Made by a program: the position numbers
Shown: one piece after another, positions 13,901-19,900 of the stretch
Layout: every line of letters begins with the position of its first letter
Position numbering within the stretch: position 1 is the stretch's first letter
Assembly: GCF_045037415.1 (NCBI RefSeq)
Contig: NZ_CP173438.1
DNA length: 64,000 nt
Direction: 5' to 3' (one strand)
DNA from: Escherichia coli
GTDB taxonomy: Bacteria > Pseudomonadota > Gammaproteobacteria > Enterobacterales > Enterobacteriaceae

Positions 13901-16900
13901 GTCGCTGGCCGCCACGTTGTTGCTTTCCGCCGTGGCGGTCGGCTGCGGTGATTGCGCATTCAGCGCCAGGGTATTCATCAGGCTTCTCCCAGTTTCAGCA
14001 AACTTTGCTGCATACTTTTCACGTTGTTGAGCACATCGACATTGGTTTCGAAATCGCGCGAAGCCGACATCATGTCCGCCATCTGTTCCACCACGTTGAC
14101 GTCGGGATACCAGACATCCCCGTTAGCATCGGCGAGCGGCGAATGTGGTTCATAGCGTTTCACAGCTCCGCCGGTTTGCAGCACGTCCTGCACCTGCACA
14201 CTGGCACCGTCAATGGCATGACGATGTGTACCCGCCAGCAAACTGTGGTGATACACCGCCGCAAACACCGGGCTGCGCGCTTTATATGCCTGCGCCTCGC
14301 TGCTGGCGGGCGCATTGGCATTCGCCAGGTTACTGGCAACGGTATTCAGACGCAGCGTTTGCGCCGTCATCGCCGAACCGGAAATCTGATAGATATCAGT
14401 AAATGACATGCTTATTTCCCTTCAATGGCCTCTCTGATGCCGCTGATTTGCAGATTCAGAAAGGTCAGACTGCTTTGATAATCCATACTATTTTGTGAAA
14501 ACCGCGCTTGTTCGCTGTTCAGTTCCACGGTGTTGCCATCTTCCGACGGCTGCATCGGCACACGGTACTGGACATCCACCGCCGCGTTATTTGCCCGTTG
14601 CATCTCCCTGGCAAAATCAATATCTTTAGCCTTGAAATTTGGCGTATCGACGTTCGCCAGATTCGCAGTCAGTAGCTCGGTCCTCTCAAGACGTAACTTC
14701 ACTGCCTGCGGATGTACTCCCAATGCCTGCTGAAAACTGATCCCCATTTCCTGCGTCACTCCTGCTTCAATCCGCATACGCTAAGCAATCGCCGTGCCAT
14801 TTTTTAAGTGACTGAAGAGAAAGGGTTTATGAGTTTTCAATTTTGCAGGCGGAAGTTTTATTTCCTCCTGGCGCTGGCCTTACCGGGCTACGCCGCCGTC
14901 CATCCCGTGCAGCACAGCGCGCGGGAACAAGTCAACGCCCAGGTACTGAATGCCGCCAGCCAAAAAATTGAATCGCTGGCGCAACAGCGGCGCTGGCATG
15001 ACTATCGCTACACCTTTAAGGTCTACATTCCCTCGCAGATTGCGACCGCCGCGCCCTGTACTAAAACACCCGGCGTTACGCTGACTTCGCCTGGGGACAT
15101 CGCCCTCAACCGGATGAACTTCACCGTCAGTTGCCCACAAAGCTGGCAGATGAACGTAGCGGTGCGTCCGGATGTACTGGTGCCAGTAGTAATGGCGAAG
15201 TCACTGGTTGCCCGCGATACGCCGCTCACCGCGAATGATGTGGAGTTGAAGCCTTACAACGTCAGTGCCCAGCGCCGGGAGGTGTTGATGGAACCCAATG
15301 ACGCGATTGGTTTCAGCAGTAAACACGCGCTGCAACCGGGCAGGCCAATCACCAAAGAAGAACTGATATCTCCGGTGCTGGTCGAGCGCGATCAACCGGT
15401 GATGATTGTTTACCAGAGCGCGGGGATCACCGCCTCAATGCCCGGCGTAGCACTGAAAAATGGTCGCAAAGGGGAAACGGTGAAGGTGCGTAACGCCAGC
15501 AGCCAGCGGGTCATCAGCGCGATGGTGGCGGAAAGCGGCGTGGTGACAACGGTAAGCGCGGAGTAATTTGCGCGGGCGATTAAAGTTTTGCCGCCTGTTA
15601 ACCGCTTTACCGGAGTAACCCACCCAAAATACCGAGACGAGGTTACGATGAAAATCACCCCGACTATGCCAGGCAATCACCCGACAGCCACAATGGCAGG
15701 CTCCAGTCAGCCGCGCAAAAGCACGGCGACCACCGCCACGACGCTGAGCGCCGATGACATTACCCAGGCGGGATTGCAGTCTGCCCAGCAAACGCTGAAC
15801 GACCAGCAAGAGAGCGATATCGACAGCGACAAAGTGGCACAAATGCAGGCGATGCTAGCCTCCGGCAGCCTGCAAGTGGACACCGAGCAGTTAGCCAGCG
15901 ACATGCTGAGTTTTTTCCAGAACTAAGAGGCCGATGAAGTGAGTATCCGGTTACAACAGGTGAAGGCGTTGTTGCAGGGAATTCGTGACGACGACGCACT
16001 GTACGATTCCCTGCGTGAACTTCTCCAGCGTCAGCGGATCTGCATGATTCGCCGCGCCAGAGAGGATCTGCTGGCGGTAAACGACGAGATAACGCAGCAC
16101 TATGAGCAGTTGCATGCGCATAGCCATCAGCGGCATAGCCTGCTGAAAATGCTCGGTGTTAGCGTAAATCGTGACGGTCTGGCGCAGGTTTTTGCCTGGC
16201 TTCCGGCGGTACAAAAAGCGGCAGCGCAACAGTTGTGGCAACGCCTTGAGCAAAAAGCAGAACGCTGCAAAGCCTATAACGATAAAAACGGCGAGCTGTT
16301 AATTCGCCAGTATGAATTTATTCAGGCTTTTTTAGGCAGCGAAGCGGATTTTCTCTATCAGGGATAACGACAATTCCTTCCCCCATCGCGGAAACGGATT
16401 TTCCGCCTGATCCCCAATCCTTTGTTTTTGATTAAAAAAATTCCCGGCACGCTTATTGCACATCCTGCAAGGTAATAAAGACTGGAAACTACCTATGAGT
16501 TTTATTGAATGTTACGAACCGGAATATGTGCGCAATTTTATGGCACGCCACCCCGATTCGCCTTTATACGTCCGCAAGGTGTGGAAAAACGAGATTCGCC
16601 AGAGCCTGATGCTGACAGAGCCAGAAAGCTGCGAAGCGGTGCTCAACGATGCCTGCGCCTTTGATTTACAGCTCACCTACCGCCCGGTGGAAGAAAATGC
16701 CGCAGAACTCTCCGCGCGCGATGCGATAGTAAACCAGGCCATTTTGAGCACCCTTACGCTCCCCGATTTAACCCCGGAGCTTTACCTGTATGCCGTCGGA
16801 ATTGTGCTCTCCCGCGCCAGTAAAATGCCGGGCAGAGATGGAGATATTCTTGCCCGCTTGACGACGCTGCCACAGGCGCTGGCCGATCATGCACAAAAAG

Positions 16901-19900
16901 GCACGCTACAGGCACAGTTCGCCCAGCTCCCGCCCGTGCCACAGCCGGCGCGCCAGTTGATGACGCTGCTCGGCAGTTGTGCATTTGACTGGTCGATTTT
17001 GCCGGAAAGCCCGCGCAAAACTTCCCTGCCGTTGCAAATGCCTTTGCTGACGCTACATGACGCCAACAGCAAAGCCCTGTTACAACAGCAGCTTAAGGTG
17101 CAGTGGCAAACCACCTGGCAACAGCATTTTGCCACCGCGCCGTGGATGATGCGTAACTGGCTGATTTACCGCGTTTACCATGAGGTGATTGGACAGGCAG
17201 ACGGCGCAGATTATTGCCCGCTGGTGTGCGATTTTTATCTTATCCGCACGTTAATCAGTTTATGGACGCTGGATGGTTCTCCGCTGCGACAGGAGGATAT
17301 TTTCGCCCTCTTCGCCATGTTTGAACGCTGGCGAGAGAGTGAAAATGCCGTGCTGATTCGCCAACAAATTCAGGCTGAACGTTCCGCAGATCCCCTGCTT
17401 TATGCGTTTTCACTGCTGTCTTGCTAACGCTTTCTGGCCGGTTTTCCCGGCCTTATCGACTTCGTAAACTATCATGCAAACCCTCATCAAAACACTCGTC
17501 ACTCACCGCGTAAAACCGTTTGTCAGCGTCGTCACGCCAACCTGGAACCGCGGCGCATTCCTGCCGTACCTGCTTTATATGTACCGCTATCAGGACTACC
17601 CGGCAGACCGCCGCGAACTCATCATCCTCGACGACTCCCCGCAAAGCCATCAACACATCATCGACCGCCTGACCAATGGCACGCCGGAATCCTTCAACAT
17701 CCGCTACATCCATCACCCGGAAAAACTGCCGCTGGGCAAAAAACGCAATATGCTCAACGAACTGGCGCGCGGCGAATACATCCTCTGCATGGACGATGAC
17801 GACTACTACTCGCCAGATAAAATCTCTTACTCCATCGCCATGATGCAAAAACACCGGGCGCTCATCTCCGGTTCCGACCAGATCCCCATCTGGTACAGCC
17901 ACATCAACCGCATTTTCAAAAGCCGCAGCTTTGGCCCACATAACATCCTCAATGGCACCTTTTGCTATCACCGTAACTACCTGAAAAAGCACCGTTACGA
18001 CGACGATTGTAATTTAGGCGAGGAGAAAAGTTTCACCGACAATTTCAGCGTTAACCCGCTGCAACTGCCCGGCGAGCGCACGATTCTGTGTATCTCGCAC
18101 AGCCACAACACCTTTGATAAAGACTTTATCCTCGGGGCCAGCACGCCTGTAAACGCGGTGCTTACGGATATCGTCAGCGATCCGCTGCTACGCAACGCTT
18201 ATCTGGGTCTGCATAACGCCACTCATTATCAGGCGATCCACCATCAGGCGATCGATCAGGTCGTATTGATCAATCTGGATAAACGCCCGGATCGCTTACA
18301 GCAGATCCGTGAAGAACTGACATTGCTGCATATTCCGCCTGAGAAGATCACCCGCCTTGCCGCCAGTGAAAATGAAAACGGTCAACGGGGCCGCCAGCAA
18401 TCACACTTGCAGGCGCTGCGTCTGGCGCAACAGCACGGCTGGCAAAACTACCTGTTGCTGGAAGATGACGCGGTTATTCTCAAACAGGAGAAACATATTC
18501 AGGTGCTGAACGCGCTGCTGGCGAGTCTGGCGAAAATTCCCTGGCAGGTGATGATCCTCGGCGGCGAAATTTCGCAGGGAACGATGCTAAAAAGTTTGCC
18601 TGGGCTGGTGCACGCGCGGGACTGCCGCAAAGTGTGCGCTTATCTGGTGAACAGCCGCTACTACCCGCAGCTGGCGCAGCAGATGAACAACGATGAGCAT
18701 TCGCTGGAAGACGGCTGGCAGCCGCTGCTGCACACCGACAAATGGCTGGCCTGTTACCCGAGCCTTTGTTATCAGCGACAGGGCTTTAGTGATATCGAGA
18801 AAAAAGCGACTGATAACATTAACCACTACTTCAATAAGTTACCCGTAGCCACCAAGCCATCTACATTACCTATCGCCGATACCATCGGCTTTTTTATGGA
18901 AACCTCATTCCACTACGCGCTCTACCGCCCAATCATCACCGCCCTGCAGGCGCAGGGGCAGAGCTGTACGCTGGTGATCAATGACCGCGTATTTAAACCA
19001 TTTCTGGATGAAATGCTGGCGACGCTAAAAAGCATCGACGATCCGCAGCTCAAAGGAATGCGCTTATCTGAAATGCAGGCACACGGTCAGCGAGTGAAAT
19101 GCCTGGTCAGCCCCTATCACACGCCCGCGCTCAATGGCCTTTCAACCCTGAACATTCGCGCCATGTACGGCTTAGCCAAAGAAACGTGGAACCACGCCGA
19201 CTGGAACCGTTTTTATCAGCGCATTTTGTGTTACAGCCACTACAGCCAGCGGGCGCTGGCACATTTCGGCAGCGCAAAAGTGGTCGGCAATCCGCGCTTC
19301 GACGCCTGGCATAACGGCACGTTTGACCGCGCTCTGCCGGAAAATATCCAACCCGATTCCCATAAACCTACGGTGCTCTACGCCCCCACGTTTGGCGCAT
19401 TAAGCTCCCTGCCCCACTGGGCAGAAAAATTGGGCCGCTTAAGCGGTGATGTGAACCTGATGTGCAAACTGCACCACGGCACTTGCTCGCGCCCGGAAGA
19501 AGCTGCATCGCTGGCACTGGCGCGCAGGCATTTAAAACAGCGCACCGACTCTGCCCGCCACACGCTGGCGCTACTGGCAAAGGCCGATTACGTGCTGACC
19601 GATAACAGCGGCTTTATTTTCGATGCTATTCACGTTGATAAGCGGGTGATCCTGCTCGACTTTCCGGGCATGACAACGTTGCTCGACGGTGAGAAAAGTT
19701 ATTCCACGCCCGAAAGTGCCGACCAGCAAATTCGCGAAATATTGCCGGTGGCTCATGATGTTGCGGAATTACGTTATCTGCTATCAGAGGCGTTTGACTG
19801 GTGTGCGGTACAGGGGCAACTGGCGGAAATTCGTCATCACTATTGCGATGCGTTTATGGATGGCAAGGCGGGAGAACGGGCGGCGATGGTGATTATGGAG

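What the first reader, a model, noticed from the sequence alone, without database searches (positions are those of the whole stretch)
16495..17427. Unknown 323-aa protein as first gene of the sigma54-promoted cargo operon
It has no motif I can recognise, has no obvious signal peptide or long hydrophobic stretch, and is followed 46 nt later by the three-domain transferase. Its position suggests a dedicated partner such as an acceptor-recognition factor, chaperone or regulator of the modification enzyme.
Basis: inference. Interest (0 to 1): 0.4.

Follow-up and report, generated by a model that had tools for sequence, protein, structure and literature searches.

The report
Flagellin methylase relative without its catalytic cluster
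The "unknown" gene is lafV of the E. coli lateral-flagella locus, a relative of the Salmonella flagellin methylase FliB that has lost the iron-sulfur domain the enzyme needs, and that almost always sits next to one particular flagellin glycosyltransferase, so it is more likely that enzyme's helper than the methylase databases call it.

Summary
The ORF is real, but it is 310 aa (ATG 16495 to TAA 17427), not 323. The TTG start that gives 323 aa lies inside the sigma54 -12 element. It is not an orphan. It is LafV of the E. coli Flag-2 (lateral flagella) locus and a true homologue of FliB, the flagellin lysine-N-methylase (HHalign probability 99.9%; Pfam FliB_C).

It lacks an 85-residue internal segment, FliB's CxxCxxCC domain. 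It keeps none of FliB's 8 invariant cysteines, including the four that hold the [4Fe-4S] cluster shown to be essential for methylation. It scores 38.5 bits against a cutoff of 85 on the curated FliB model.

It is under purifying selection (dN/dS about 0.2-0.26). It sits next to the same GT2/GT25-like transferase in:
- 19 of 19 species genomes
- 49 of 51 assessable metagenome loci
- 1278 E. coli genomes with lafV and 1278 with the transferase core
- two opposite gene orders

Canonical FliB stands alone beside fliC.

Best reading (inferred, about 0.5): a non-catalytic, flagellin-directed partner of the transferase, analogous to GlfM with Maf-2. The "lysine-N-methylase" annotation is probably wrong. 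The gene was already named, but its degenerate state and the module appear not to have been described. This is a new variant of a known kind, of moderate interest.

The parts
16445..16460 (+). sigma54-type promoter element cGGCACGcttaTTGCA (GG-N10-GC), 34 nt upstream of the ATG
   Evidence: Pattern search. Invariant in 5 E. coli alleles that differ by about 12% in the coding region. An equivalent GGCA[C/T]G-N4-TTGC[A/T] lies upstream of lafV in 18 of 19 species, including Leminorella. A sigma54 activator (LafK-like) is encoded in the locus. Promoter activity was not tested.
16495..17427 (+). lafV coding sequence: 310 aa, 35.4 kDa, pI 5.2; a FliB-family protein without the Fe-S domain
   Evidence: ORF. 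RefSeq WP_000008076.1. dN/dS 0.20-0.26. AF2 pLDDT 90, with the fold reproduced from a second alignment.
16495..16557 (+). residues 1-21: the conserved N-terminal strand and helix ('Y-x-P-E-F/Y-V') shared with FliB residues 1-21. The deletion junction follows residue 21.
   Evidence: 51-sequence alignment: P9 is invariant in all three tiers. The window is gapped opposite FliB (P0157) residues 22-106, which is 85 aa.
16570..17424 (+). residues 26-310: region homologous to the FliB C-terminal domain (FliB_C, PF27117). Mostly helical, with the conserved N-x3-Y-x2-Y motif at N221/Y225/Y228.
   Evidence: HHalign probability 99.9%, E 3e-36, family columns 26-313 against FliB 109-400. NF038110 match of aa 29-286 to profile positions 105-369. 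PF27117 on orthologues.
17436..17452 (+). G+C-rich hairpin GGCCGG-uuuuc-CCGGCC in the 46-nt spacer between lafV and the transferase; no U tract follows
   Evidence: RNA fold -12.2 kcal/mol, z -2.4. The scan did not call it a terminator. Its role is unknown.
17474..19912 (+). 812-aa transferase: GT2 domain, GT25-like middle domain and TagB/F-like CDP-glycerol glycerophosphotransferase domain. This is the conserved neighbour of lafV.
   Evidence: Pfam and NCBIfam. The middle domain matches stand-alone GT25-like genes. Residues 3-456 are homologous to the 422-502-aa GT2 proteins next to all other short LafVs.
22823..23218 (-). tagD-like glycerol-3-phosphate cytidylyltransferase, the presumed CDP-glycerol supplier for the transferase's third domain
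   Evidence: Pfam CTP_transf_like, E 3e-20. It is the third member of the minimal variable region (lafV + GT + tagD) in the O111 and TW10598 loci. It is lost together with the TagB domain in Phytobacter.

Best explanation
The gene is lafV of the E. coli Flag-2 (lateral flagella) locus. It descends from a FliB-type flagellin lysine-N-methylase by clean excision of the 85-residue CxxCxxCC insert that carries the [4Fe-4S] cluster, followed by loss of the remaining cysteine ligands. What is left is the short N-terminal beta unit plus the helical FliB_C body.

It is transcribed from its own sigma54 (LafK-type) promoter together with the GT2/GT25-like/TagB transferase. That places it in the early-to-middle flagellar class, before flagellin is made.

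I propose that it no longer methylates anything. Instead it serves as the non-catalytic, flagellin(LafA)-directed partner of the adjacent transferase: it docks or presents cytoplasmic LafA, and perhaps scaffolds the enzyme at the membrane as FliB oligomers do. The transferase has no recognisable flagellin-binding domain of its own, and with this help it could add a sugar-glycerol-phosphate decoration. This is the logic of the GlfM-Maf-2 'tripartite' flagellin glycosylation system.

Shown: identity, homology, the missing domain and cysteines, purifying selection, the conserved promoter element, and the near-universal adjacency. Inferred: loss of methylase activity, binding to LafA and/or the transferase, and the nature of the decoration.
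For: Homology to FliB:
- HHalign probability 99.9%, E 3e-36.
- NF038110 match restricted to profile positions 105-369.
- PF27117 FliB_C on orthologues.

Missing catalytic apparatus:
- The window is gapped opposite FliB residues 22-106. It keeps 0 of the 8 cysteines that are invariant in 19 long FliB-type proteins: C17 aligns with A17, C126 with E42, and the other six fall in the gap.
- The gap coincides with FliB's weak CxxCxxCC PF03692 match at aa 17-123.
- The FliB C17A/C22A/C26A/C27A mutant loses both the cluster and methylation (PMC8598068).
- No CX4CX3CC-encoding ORF exists elsewhere in the window, and the minimal variable region of other strains holds only lafV, the GT and tagD. A split enzyme is therefore unlikely.

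Still functional:
- dN/dS is 0.20-0.26 between alleles with dS about 0.3.
- Length and N-terminus are conserved down to 39% identity across six genera.

Coupling to the transferase:
- 19 of 19 genome loci.
- In E. coli, 1278 genomes with lafV and 1278 with the transferase core.
- 49 of 51 assessable metagenome loci found from the transferase side, and none of 23 loci that have only single-domain GT2 relatives.
- Adjacency survives an inversion of gene order (fliJ-GT-lafV, often with overlapping stop and start codons, versus lfgN-lafV-GT).
- Published strain counts pair up: LafV6 219 with GT2-1 222, and LafV1 112 with GT2-3 99.

Contrast with the real enzyme:
- Long FliB sits in fliD-fliC-fliB-fliA without a GT.
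- In flag-1, FliB islands and glycosylation islands are mutually exclusive apart from two strains (PMC4875605).

Other support:
- The Cys motif was lost at least twice among short forms while the protein and its GT neighbour persisted.
- Precedent for trans-acting helical specificity factors: GlfM-Maf-2. Precedent for built-in flagellin-binding domains: FlmG and Maf-1.
- The transferase shows no TPR or other binding domain in Pfam.
Against: There is no direct evidence of binding to LafA or to the transferase. The AF2 run on a LafV-linker-GT-core fusion with a paired alignment gave pTM 0.45 with the GT2 domain itself unfolded, so it neither supports nor refutes a complex.

Conserved adjacency inside a vertically inherited flagellar locus is partly explained by synteny alone. 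Two loci (L063, L065) keep the transferase with no lafV, and some strains carry lafV pseudogenes next to an intact transferase (TW10598), so the transferase may not need it.

lafV evolves faster than its neighbours (dN/dS 0.2-0.26 against 0.03-0.16). In the Escherichia clade even the family-wide 'H-D-x-F-P' motif is degraded to 'H-E-V-I-G', which could mean decay rather than specialisation.

What FliB_C does in FliB itself is unknown. Flagellin binding by that domain is an assumption. The related CxCxxC-containing short forms might still bind a metal and be enzymes.
Confidence: 0.5

Rival explanations
1. It is still a flagellin (LafA) lysine-N-methylase, as RefSeq and the Flag-2 literature assume, but uses the FliB_C domain alone, for example through direct SAM binding and SN2 transfer without an Fe-S cluster.
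For: True homology to FliB over about 285 residues. Location in a flagellar locus. Purifying selection. Named 'lysine-N-methylase' for many orthologues and 'predicted N-lysine methylase' in PMC6993521. Motifs shared by all tiers (N221, Y225, Y228, N80, S37) could form an active or ligand site.
Against: It has 0 of 8 invariant FliB cysteines and the whole CxxCxxCC segment is absent. The cluster-less FliB mutant is inactive, and SAM chemistry is proposed to occur at the cluster. It scores 38.5 bits against the curated cutoff of 85, and all short forms fail that cutoff. No Rossmann or SET methyltransferase fold, nor any other solved fold, matches the model. Its genomic behaviour is the opposite of FliB's: always with a GT, whereas FliB excludes GTs.
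Confidence: 0.15
2. It is an evolutionary leftover: a crippled methylase gene that is carried along with the locus and is slowly decaying, with no present function.
For: It is the fastest-evolving gene of the neighbourhood (39-55% identity where the GT2 domain keeps 76-81%; dN/dS twice to ten times that of its neighbours). Of E. coli genomes, 598 have under 90% nucleotide identity for lafV, and none do for the GT core. Pseudogene alleles exist: an internal stop in TW10598, an ISEc60 insertion in FDAARGOS_944, and a 98-aa remnant in L080. It is cleanly absent from L063 and L065. A family-wide motif is degraded in Escherichia.
Against: dN/dS of 0.2-0.26 at dS about 0.3 is clear purifying selection. 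The reading frame, length (306-315 aa) and N-terminus are kept across six genera and down to 39% identity. Its own sigma54 element is conserved in 18 of 19 species. The Cys-less state is old and was retained after at least two independent losses. The AF2 model is confident and well packed.
Confidence: 0.13
3. It acts on or with lateral flagellin independently of the transferase. It might be a LafA-binding holdase or export-timing factor, or a regulator of Flag-2 gene expression, and adjacency to the transferase only reflects a shared promoter.
For: FliB is proposed to receive chaperone-bound flagellin at the membrane before export, so a catalytically dead descendant could retain only that binding. 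It is expressed from a sigma54 promoter next to the lfgM and lfgN regulator and chaperone genes. The transferase persists without it in two loci.
Against: Adjacency to the same transferase family survives relocation to a different operon and the reverse gene order, often with overlapping stop and start codons that suggest coupled translation. That is hard to explain by promoter sharing alone. Lateral-flagellar loci without this transferase lack LafV: VR1 is absent from most Yersiniaceae flag-2 loci (PMC6993521). No DNA-binding or known chaperone fold was detected.
Confidence: 0.1

Closest known systems
FliB, flagellin lysine-N-methylase of Salmonella enterica (NCBIfam NF038110; mechanism in PMC8598068)
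   Same: Homologous N-terminal 'x-P-x-F-V' strand and the whole C-terminal FliB_C body (HHalign 99.9%, 19% identity). Cytoplasmic protein encoded in a flagellar locus. Presumably directed at flagellin.
   Different: Lacks 85 residues (FliB 22-106), which is the CxxCxxCC domain, and all 8 invariant cysteines, including the CX4CX3CC ligands of the essential [4Fe-4S] cluster. 310 aa against about 400 aa. Fails the curated model (38.5 against 85 bits). Lies next to a glycosyltransferase and lfgN rather than next to the flagellin gene.
LafV (LafV1-LafV10) of enterobacterial flag-2 variable region 1, as catalogued by De Maayer et al. 2020 (PMC6993521); this gene corresponds to their LafV6-type (311 aa)
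   Same: Same gene, same position between lfgN and lfiJ, same length class.
   Different: That work treats LafV as an orthologue of FliB and as evidence that flag-2 flagellin is methylated. It reports no conserved-domain hit. In the passages and table I read, it does not mention the missing Cys/Fe-S domain or the one-to-one pairing with GT2-1 and GT2-3. The name is also used for an unrelated degenerate EAL protein in Vibrio parahaemolyticus.
Short CxCxxC-type FliB_C proteins of other lateral-flagellar loci (P0087, P0094, P0117 and others; De Maayer's LafV1-like)
   Same: Sister clade. Same 85-residue excision, same length, and the same pairing with a homologous GT2/GT25-like transferase.
   Different: They retain four cysteines (C-x-C-x2-C plus the C126 equivalent), which could still bind a metal. 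Their gene lies downstream of a two-domain GT of about 470 aa in the fliE-J operon. The window protein has no motif and lies upstream of a three-domain GT of about 810 aa behind its own promoter.
GlfM-Maf-2 tripartite flagellin glycosylation system (bioRxiv 10.1101/2023.12.03.569772), and the built-in flagellin-binding domains of FlmG and Maf-1 (PMC7591256)
   Same: Functional analogy only. A cis-encoded, helical, non-catalytic factor that lets a flagellin glycosyltransferase lacking its own acceptor-binding domain recognise flagellin.
   Different: No sequence or fold relationship was tested or is claimed. GlfM is described as a four-helix bundle and Maf-2 as a sialic-acid-type transferase. 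Here the factor would be a 310-aa ex-methylase and the enzyme a GT2/GT25/TagB fusion. The interaction is hypothetical.

Membership tests
FliB flagellin lysine-N-methylase (NCBIfam NF038110, equivalog) | Full-length match to the curated model at or above its cutoff (85 bits) | tested here: not met
   38.5 bits, and only profile positions 105-369 of 373 are matched. Controls: long P0157 scores 256 bits and P0103 158 bits over positions 1-371. All six other short forms score 45-77 bits.
FliB flagellin lysine-N-methylase (NCBIfam NF038110, equivalog) | N-terminal CX4CX3CC motif (C17, C22, C26, C27) that coordinates the [4Fe-4S] cluster essential for methyl transfer (PMC8598068) | tested here: not met
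   C17 aligns with A17. C22, C26 and C27 fall in the 85-residue gap. No such motif occurs anywhere in the protein or in any real ORF of the window.
FliB flagellin lysine-N-methylase (NCBIfam NF038110, equivalog) | Eight highly conserved cysteines | tested here: not met
   All 8 are invariant in 19 long forms. The window protein keeps 0 of 8. Its own 7 cysteines (6, 46, 54, 162, 241, 245, 310) are not at those columns, and only C6 and C46 are conserved in its subfamily.
FliB flagellin lysine-N-methylase (NCBIfam NF038110, equivalog) | Homologous C-terminal body (FliB_C) | tested here: met
   HHalign probability 99.9%, E 3e-36, 284 aligned columns. The profile search finds about 48 long FliB-type representatives.
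FliB flagellin lysine-N-methylase (NCBIfam NF038110, equivalog) | Gene next to the flagellin gene (fliC-fliB-fliA), without glycosylation genes | tested here: not met
   Canonical context confirmed for P0157, and mutual exclusion with GT islands is reported in PMC4875605. The window gene lies between lfgN and a glycosyltransferase, about 16 kb from lafA.
FliB flagellin lysine-N-methylase (NCBIfam NF038110, equivalog) | SAM-dependent methylation of flagellin lysines | not testable with these tools
   Needs biochemistry or mass spectrometry of LafA. No published data on Flag-2 flagellin modification in E. coli were found.
Pfam PF27117 FliB_C domain family | Significant match to the Pfam model | tested here: met
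   This is indirect, because the local Pfam copy lacks the model. Precomputed PF27117 hits are recorded for the 96%-identical cluster representative P0001 and for essentially all full-length homologues. The family name was seen.
LafV of enterobacterial flag-2 VR1 (PMC6993521) | Protein of about 300-318 aa encoded in variable region 1 between lfgN and lfiJ, with similarity to FliB | tested here: met
   The position lfgA-lfgM-lfgN-[gene]-GT...tagD-lfiJ. 310 aa. Table S3 lists LafV6 at 311 aa in 219 Enterobacteriaceae strains.
CxxCxxCC metal-chelating domain (Pfam PF03692) / Fe-S radical-type enzymes | Cysteine-rich metal-binding domain | tested here: not met
   No Pfam hit at E up to 1. The segment that gives FliB its weak PF03692 match (aa 17-123) is the segment that is deleted here.

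The most novel reading that the evidence does not exclude
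Short FliB_C-only proteins are pseudoenzymes: a radical-type methylase scaffold turned into the flagellin-specificity subunit of a widespread, undescribed two-component flagellin transferase (LafV plus a GT2/GT25-like enzyme, here fused to a TagB-like domain and fed by TagD). This system would decorate lateral flagellin with a teichoic-acid-like sugar-glycerol-phosphate group. If so, flag-2 'methylation' as inferred from genomes does not exist in these taxa.
Probability: 0.35. Interest if true: 0.65.

Novelty: new variant of a known kind. Interest (0 to 1): 0.45.

Why it matters
- **Annotation.** About a quarter of complete E. coli genomes (1278 of 5426), and many Citrobacter and related genomes, carry this gene. 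It is labelled either 'hypothetical protein' or 'lysine-N-methylase'. The second label, and the published inference that flag-2 flagellins are commonly methylated, rest on homology to FliB. That homology does not extend to the part of FliB that does the chemistry.
- **Mechanism.** The strict pairing with one transferase family gives a concrete, cheap hypothesis to test for how a flagellin glycosyltransferase without a binding domain finds its substrate. It would add a second, independently evolved example of the 'tripartite' logic recently shown for GlfM-Maf-2.
- **FliB itself.** Nature has performed the domain dissection. The FliB_C body is stable and selectable without the cluster domain, which suggests that in FliB it is the flagellin-handling or oligomerisation module. 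No solved structure resembles it.

Tried and rejected
- **TTG 16456 start (323 aa):** rejected. It lies inside the -12 element of the conserved sigma54 site, and all homologues start at the ATG-equivalent methionine.
- **Simple 5' truncation or pseudogene of fliB:** rejected. The N-terminal 21 residues are homologous to FliB's, so the loss is internal. The upstream 128 nt hold a promoter, not gene remnants.
- **Split enzyme with a separate Cys-rich subunit:** no CX4CX3CC ORF in the window. The CxxC-containing ORF at 20394-20795 sits in strain-specific AT-rich DNA that is absent from other loci.
- **Broad alignment A3 as a locus-search query:** I used the closer A1 instead.
- **AF2 on LafV-(GGGGS)6-GT core with a 17-row paired alignment:** pTM 0.45, and the GT2 domain had pLDDT 30-45. 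Uninformative about a complex.
- **Hairpin after lfgN (16388-16406):** not distinguishable from shuffled sequence (z -0.38).
- **Ren et al. 2005, the original Flag-2 paper:** not held in the library.
- **Mirror-tree or LafA co-variation analyses:** considered and not run. The taxa fall into too few independent clusters, and LafA lies outside the fetched flanks.

Full report
**What is there.** The window is an E. coli chromosome segment, 100% identical to ST131-type strains such as SK1144. It carries the Flag-2 lateral-flagella locus. On the + strand the order is lfgA, lfgM, lfgN (15939-16367), the target ORF, and an 812-aa transferase (17474-19912). Then come three AT-rich hypothetical ORFs and, on the - strand, a tagD-like cytidylyltransferase, lfiJ and lfiI.

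The target ORF runs from ATG 16495 to TAA 17427, which is 310 aa. That TTG lies inside the -12 part of a sigma54-type element, cGGCACGcttaTTGCA, at 16445-16460. RefSeq uses the ATG. Every homologue begins at the equivalent methionine.

The 46-nt gap to the transferase and the absence of hydrophobic segments are confirmed.

The promoter element is invariant in five E. coli alleles that differ by about 12% in the coding region. An equivalent element lies upstream of the orthologue in 18 of 19 species, including Leminorella. A perfect consensus also precedes the divergent lfgB operon.

**Identity.** The local Pfam copy finds nothing. NCBIfam gives a sub-threshold match to FliB, the flagellin lysine-N-methylase: E 9.4e-10 and 38.5 bits against a cutoff of 85, covering only profile positions 105-369 of 373. 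Close homologues carry the newer Pfam family PF27117, named FliB_C.

The Flag-2 comparative paper calls these proteins LafV1-LafV10. [quoted passage not shown] It takes their presence in 342 of 592 loci as evidence that flag-2 flagellin is commonly methylated (PMC6993521). RefSeq names orthologues either 'hypothetical protein' or 'lysine-N-methylase'.

Profile-profile comparison of the subfamily with 19 long FliB-type proteins gives probability 99.9% and E 3e-36. Columns 26-313 align to FliB 109-400 at 19% identity.

**What is missing.** FliB's methyl transfer depends on a [4Fe-4S] cluster held by an N-terminal CX4CX3CC motif (C17, C22, C26, C27). The quadruple alanine mutant is colourless, gives no EPR signal and does not methylate. 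FliB has eight highly conserved cysteines in all (PMC8598068).

An exhaustive profile search of 1.84 billion representatives returned 134 relatives in two length classes:
- **Long class (about 390-448 aa):** 45 of the 48 long-class proteins carry F-C-x4-C-x3-CC. The other three are shorter (353-374 aa), begin downstream of the motif and look N-terminally truncated.
- **Short class (285-327 aa):** none of the 36 proteins has the motif.

In a 51-sequence alignment all classes share the N-terminal 'Y-x-P-E-F-V' segment. The window protein is then gapped opposite FliB residues 22-106, which is 85 aa. The common region resumes at 'W-x-N-x2-R-x-S'. The loss is therefore an internal excision, not a 5' truncation. 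It coincides with the stretch that gives FliB a weak match to the CxxCxxCC metal-chelating domain (aa 17-123).

Cysteines by class:

| Class | FliB cysteines retained |
|---|---|
| Long forms | all 8 invariant (17, 22, 26, 27, 80, 89, 104, 126) |
| Most short forms | C22, C27, C126 plus one new Cys (C-x-C-x2-C ... C) |
| Window subgroup (Escherichia, Citrobacter, Pseudocitrobacter, Phytobacter, Enterobacter, Leminorella) | none |

On the curated FliB model, long controls score 256 and 158 bits, and all seven short forms tested score 38-77 bits.

**Is it alive?** Between E. coli alleles with dS of about 0.3, dN/dS is 0.20-0.26. That is clear purifying selection, though weaker than for lfgN, lfgA, the transferase, tagD and lfiJ at the same divergence (0.03-0.14). 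Length and N-terminus are kept down to 39% identity.

Some strains do carry pseudogenes: an internal stop in TW10598 and an ISEc60 insertion in FDAARGOS_944.

**The conserved module.**
- **From the lafV side:** all 19 species-level genome loci have lfgN-lafV-transferase. Phytobacter lacks both the TagB-like domain and tagD.
- **In E. coli:** 1278 of 5426 complete genomes carry lafV and 1278 carry the transferase core.
- **Cys-containing short relatives:** these sit in a different arrangement, fliJ-GT2(422-502 aa)-lafV, often with overlapping stop and start codons. Those GT2 proteins are homologous to residues 3-456 of the window transferase (38-45% identity, E down to 1e-132). This also holds for the unannotated partial neighbours in L026 and L033.
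- **From the transferase side:** a metagenome scan gave 55 loci with the two-domain core, of which 51 could be assessed. Of these, 49 have an adjacent FliB_C gene. None of 23 loci with only single-domain GT2 relatives has one.
- **Exceptions:** L063 and L065 run lfgN straight into the transferase.

Published strain counts agree: LafV6 219 with GT2-1 222, and LafV1 112 with GT2-3 99.

By contrast, canonical FliB lies in fliD-fliC-fliB-fliA with no glycosyltransferase. In flag-1 loci, FliB islands and glycosylation islands are mutually exclusive except in two strains (PMC4875605).

A neighbour-joining tree without bootstrap support puts all short forms in one clade. It contains a CxCxxC subclade and a Cys-less subclade, and a further Cys-less protein (P0104) is nested among the CxCxxC forms. 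The motif was therefore lost at least twice while the protein and its neighbour persisted.

**Interpretation.** Shown:
- The gene is LafV, a FliB_C protein without FliB's cluster domain or any of its conserved cysteines.
- It is maintained by selection.
- It has its own conserved sigma54-type element.
- It forms a near-universal two-gene module with a GT2/GT25-like transferase.

Inferred:
- It is not a FliB-type methylase.
- It works with the transferase, most plausibly as the flagellin-directed, non-catalytic subunit. The transferase has no recognisable acceptor-binding domain, and FliB is thought to receive chaperone-bound flagellin at the membrane.

There is a direct precedent for this logic. 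Maf-2 needs the cis-encoded helical factor GlfM to bind flagellin, whereas Maf-1 and FlmG carry their own flagellin-binding domains.

The TagB-like domain and tagD suggest a glycerol-phosphate-containing decoration, as De Maayer et al. also proposed.

I could not test the interaction. An AF2 run on a linker fusion with a paired alignment gave pTM 0.45, with the GT2 domain itself unfolded.

Rival readings remain open: a residual methylase with a different mechanism, a decaying relic, or a transferase-independent flagellin binder. The relic reading draws support from lafV being the fastest-evolving gene of the neighbourhood and from the two loci without it.

**Novelty and score.** The gene, its name and its FliB similarity are published, and Pfam now has a FliB_C family. 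In the literature I could search, I did not find the observation that flag-2 LafVs lack the catalytic cluster, the three-tier series (8, then 4, then 0 cysteines), or the strict pairing with one transferase family. I rate it a new variant of a known kind. It is of moderate interest because it corrects a widespread annotation and makes a specific mechanism testable.

Noticed in passing
window 1660-3008 (-) and 6613-7961 (+): Two IS1397 (IS3-family) copies sit inside the Flag-2 locus of this strain. The second lies between the lfgJ-like 'rod-binding protein' gene and lfgK, so it may be polar on lfgK and lfgL and could silence the lateral flagella here.
   Followed up: no
window ~20000-22800: AT-rich island (G+C 31-41% against 52-58% around it) with three hypothetical ORFs (20415-20795, 21820-22368, 22456-22803) that have no Pfam hit. 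It is absent from the O111 and TW10598 loci and replaced by two other ORFs in O170 and FDAARGOS_944. This island, not lafV plus the transferase, is the real strain-variable cargo.
   Followed up: partly
window 17436-17452: G+C-rich hairpin GGCCGG-uuuuc-CCGGCC in the lafV-transferase spacer (-12.2 kcal/mol, z -2.4) with no U tract. It could be an attenuator or an mRNA-stabilising element. In the diverged E. coli alleles the spacer is 178 nt and has a different sequence.
   Followed up: partly
window 14784-14799 (-): A perfect sigma54 consensus, TGGCACggcgaTTGCT, lies just upstream of the divergently transcribed lfgB rod operon. This fits LafK/sigma54 control of the whole locus.
   Followed up: no
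L027 8001-9218 (protein P0103): The long FliB-type protein closest to the short LafV clade (405 aa, CX4CX3CC present, 158 bits on the FliB model) is not in a flagellar locus. It lies between an epmB-like radical-SAM gene with efp and groES-groEL. It may be a FliB-family enzyme with a non-flagellin substrate.
   Followed up: no
L022 (Phytobacter massiliensis) 11028-12422: Here the transferase ends after the GT25-like domain and the locus also lacks tagD. The joint loss of the TagB-like domain and the CDP-glycerol supplier supports their functional link.
   Followed up: no
L063 2687-3924 and L065 382-1620: Two related metagenome contigs have lfgN followed directly by the three-domain transferase, with no lafV. 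Their relative L064 has lafV. These are natural deletion variants that would be useful for testing whether the transferase needs LafV.
   Followed up: partly
literature / RefSeq records: Naming problems. 'LafV' also denotes an unrelated degenerate EAL protein (VPA1547) in Vibrio parahaemolyticus. RefSeq calls orthologues at 87-96% identity either 'hypothetical protein' or 'lysine-N-methylase', although none reaches the FliB model's cutoff.
   Followed up: yes
E. coli complete genomes: lafV is far more polymorphic than the adjacent transferase core in the same 1278 genomes: 598 genomes are below 90% nucleotide identity for lafV and none are for the core. In the diverged alleles the similarity stops a few bases before the lafV stop codon, which suggests a recombination boundary there.
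   Followed up: partly
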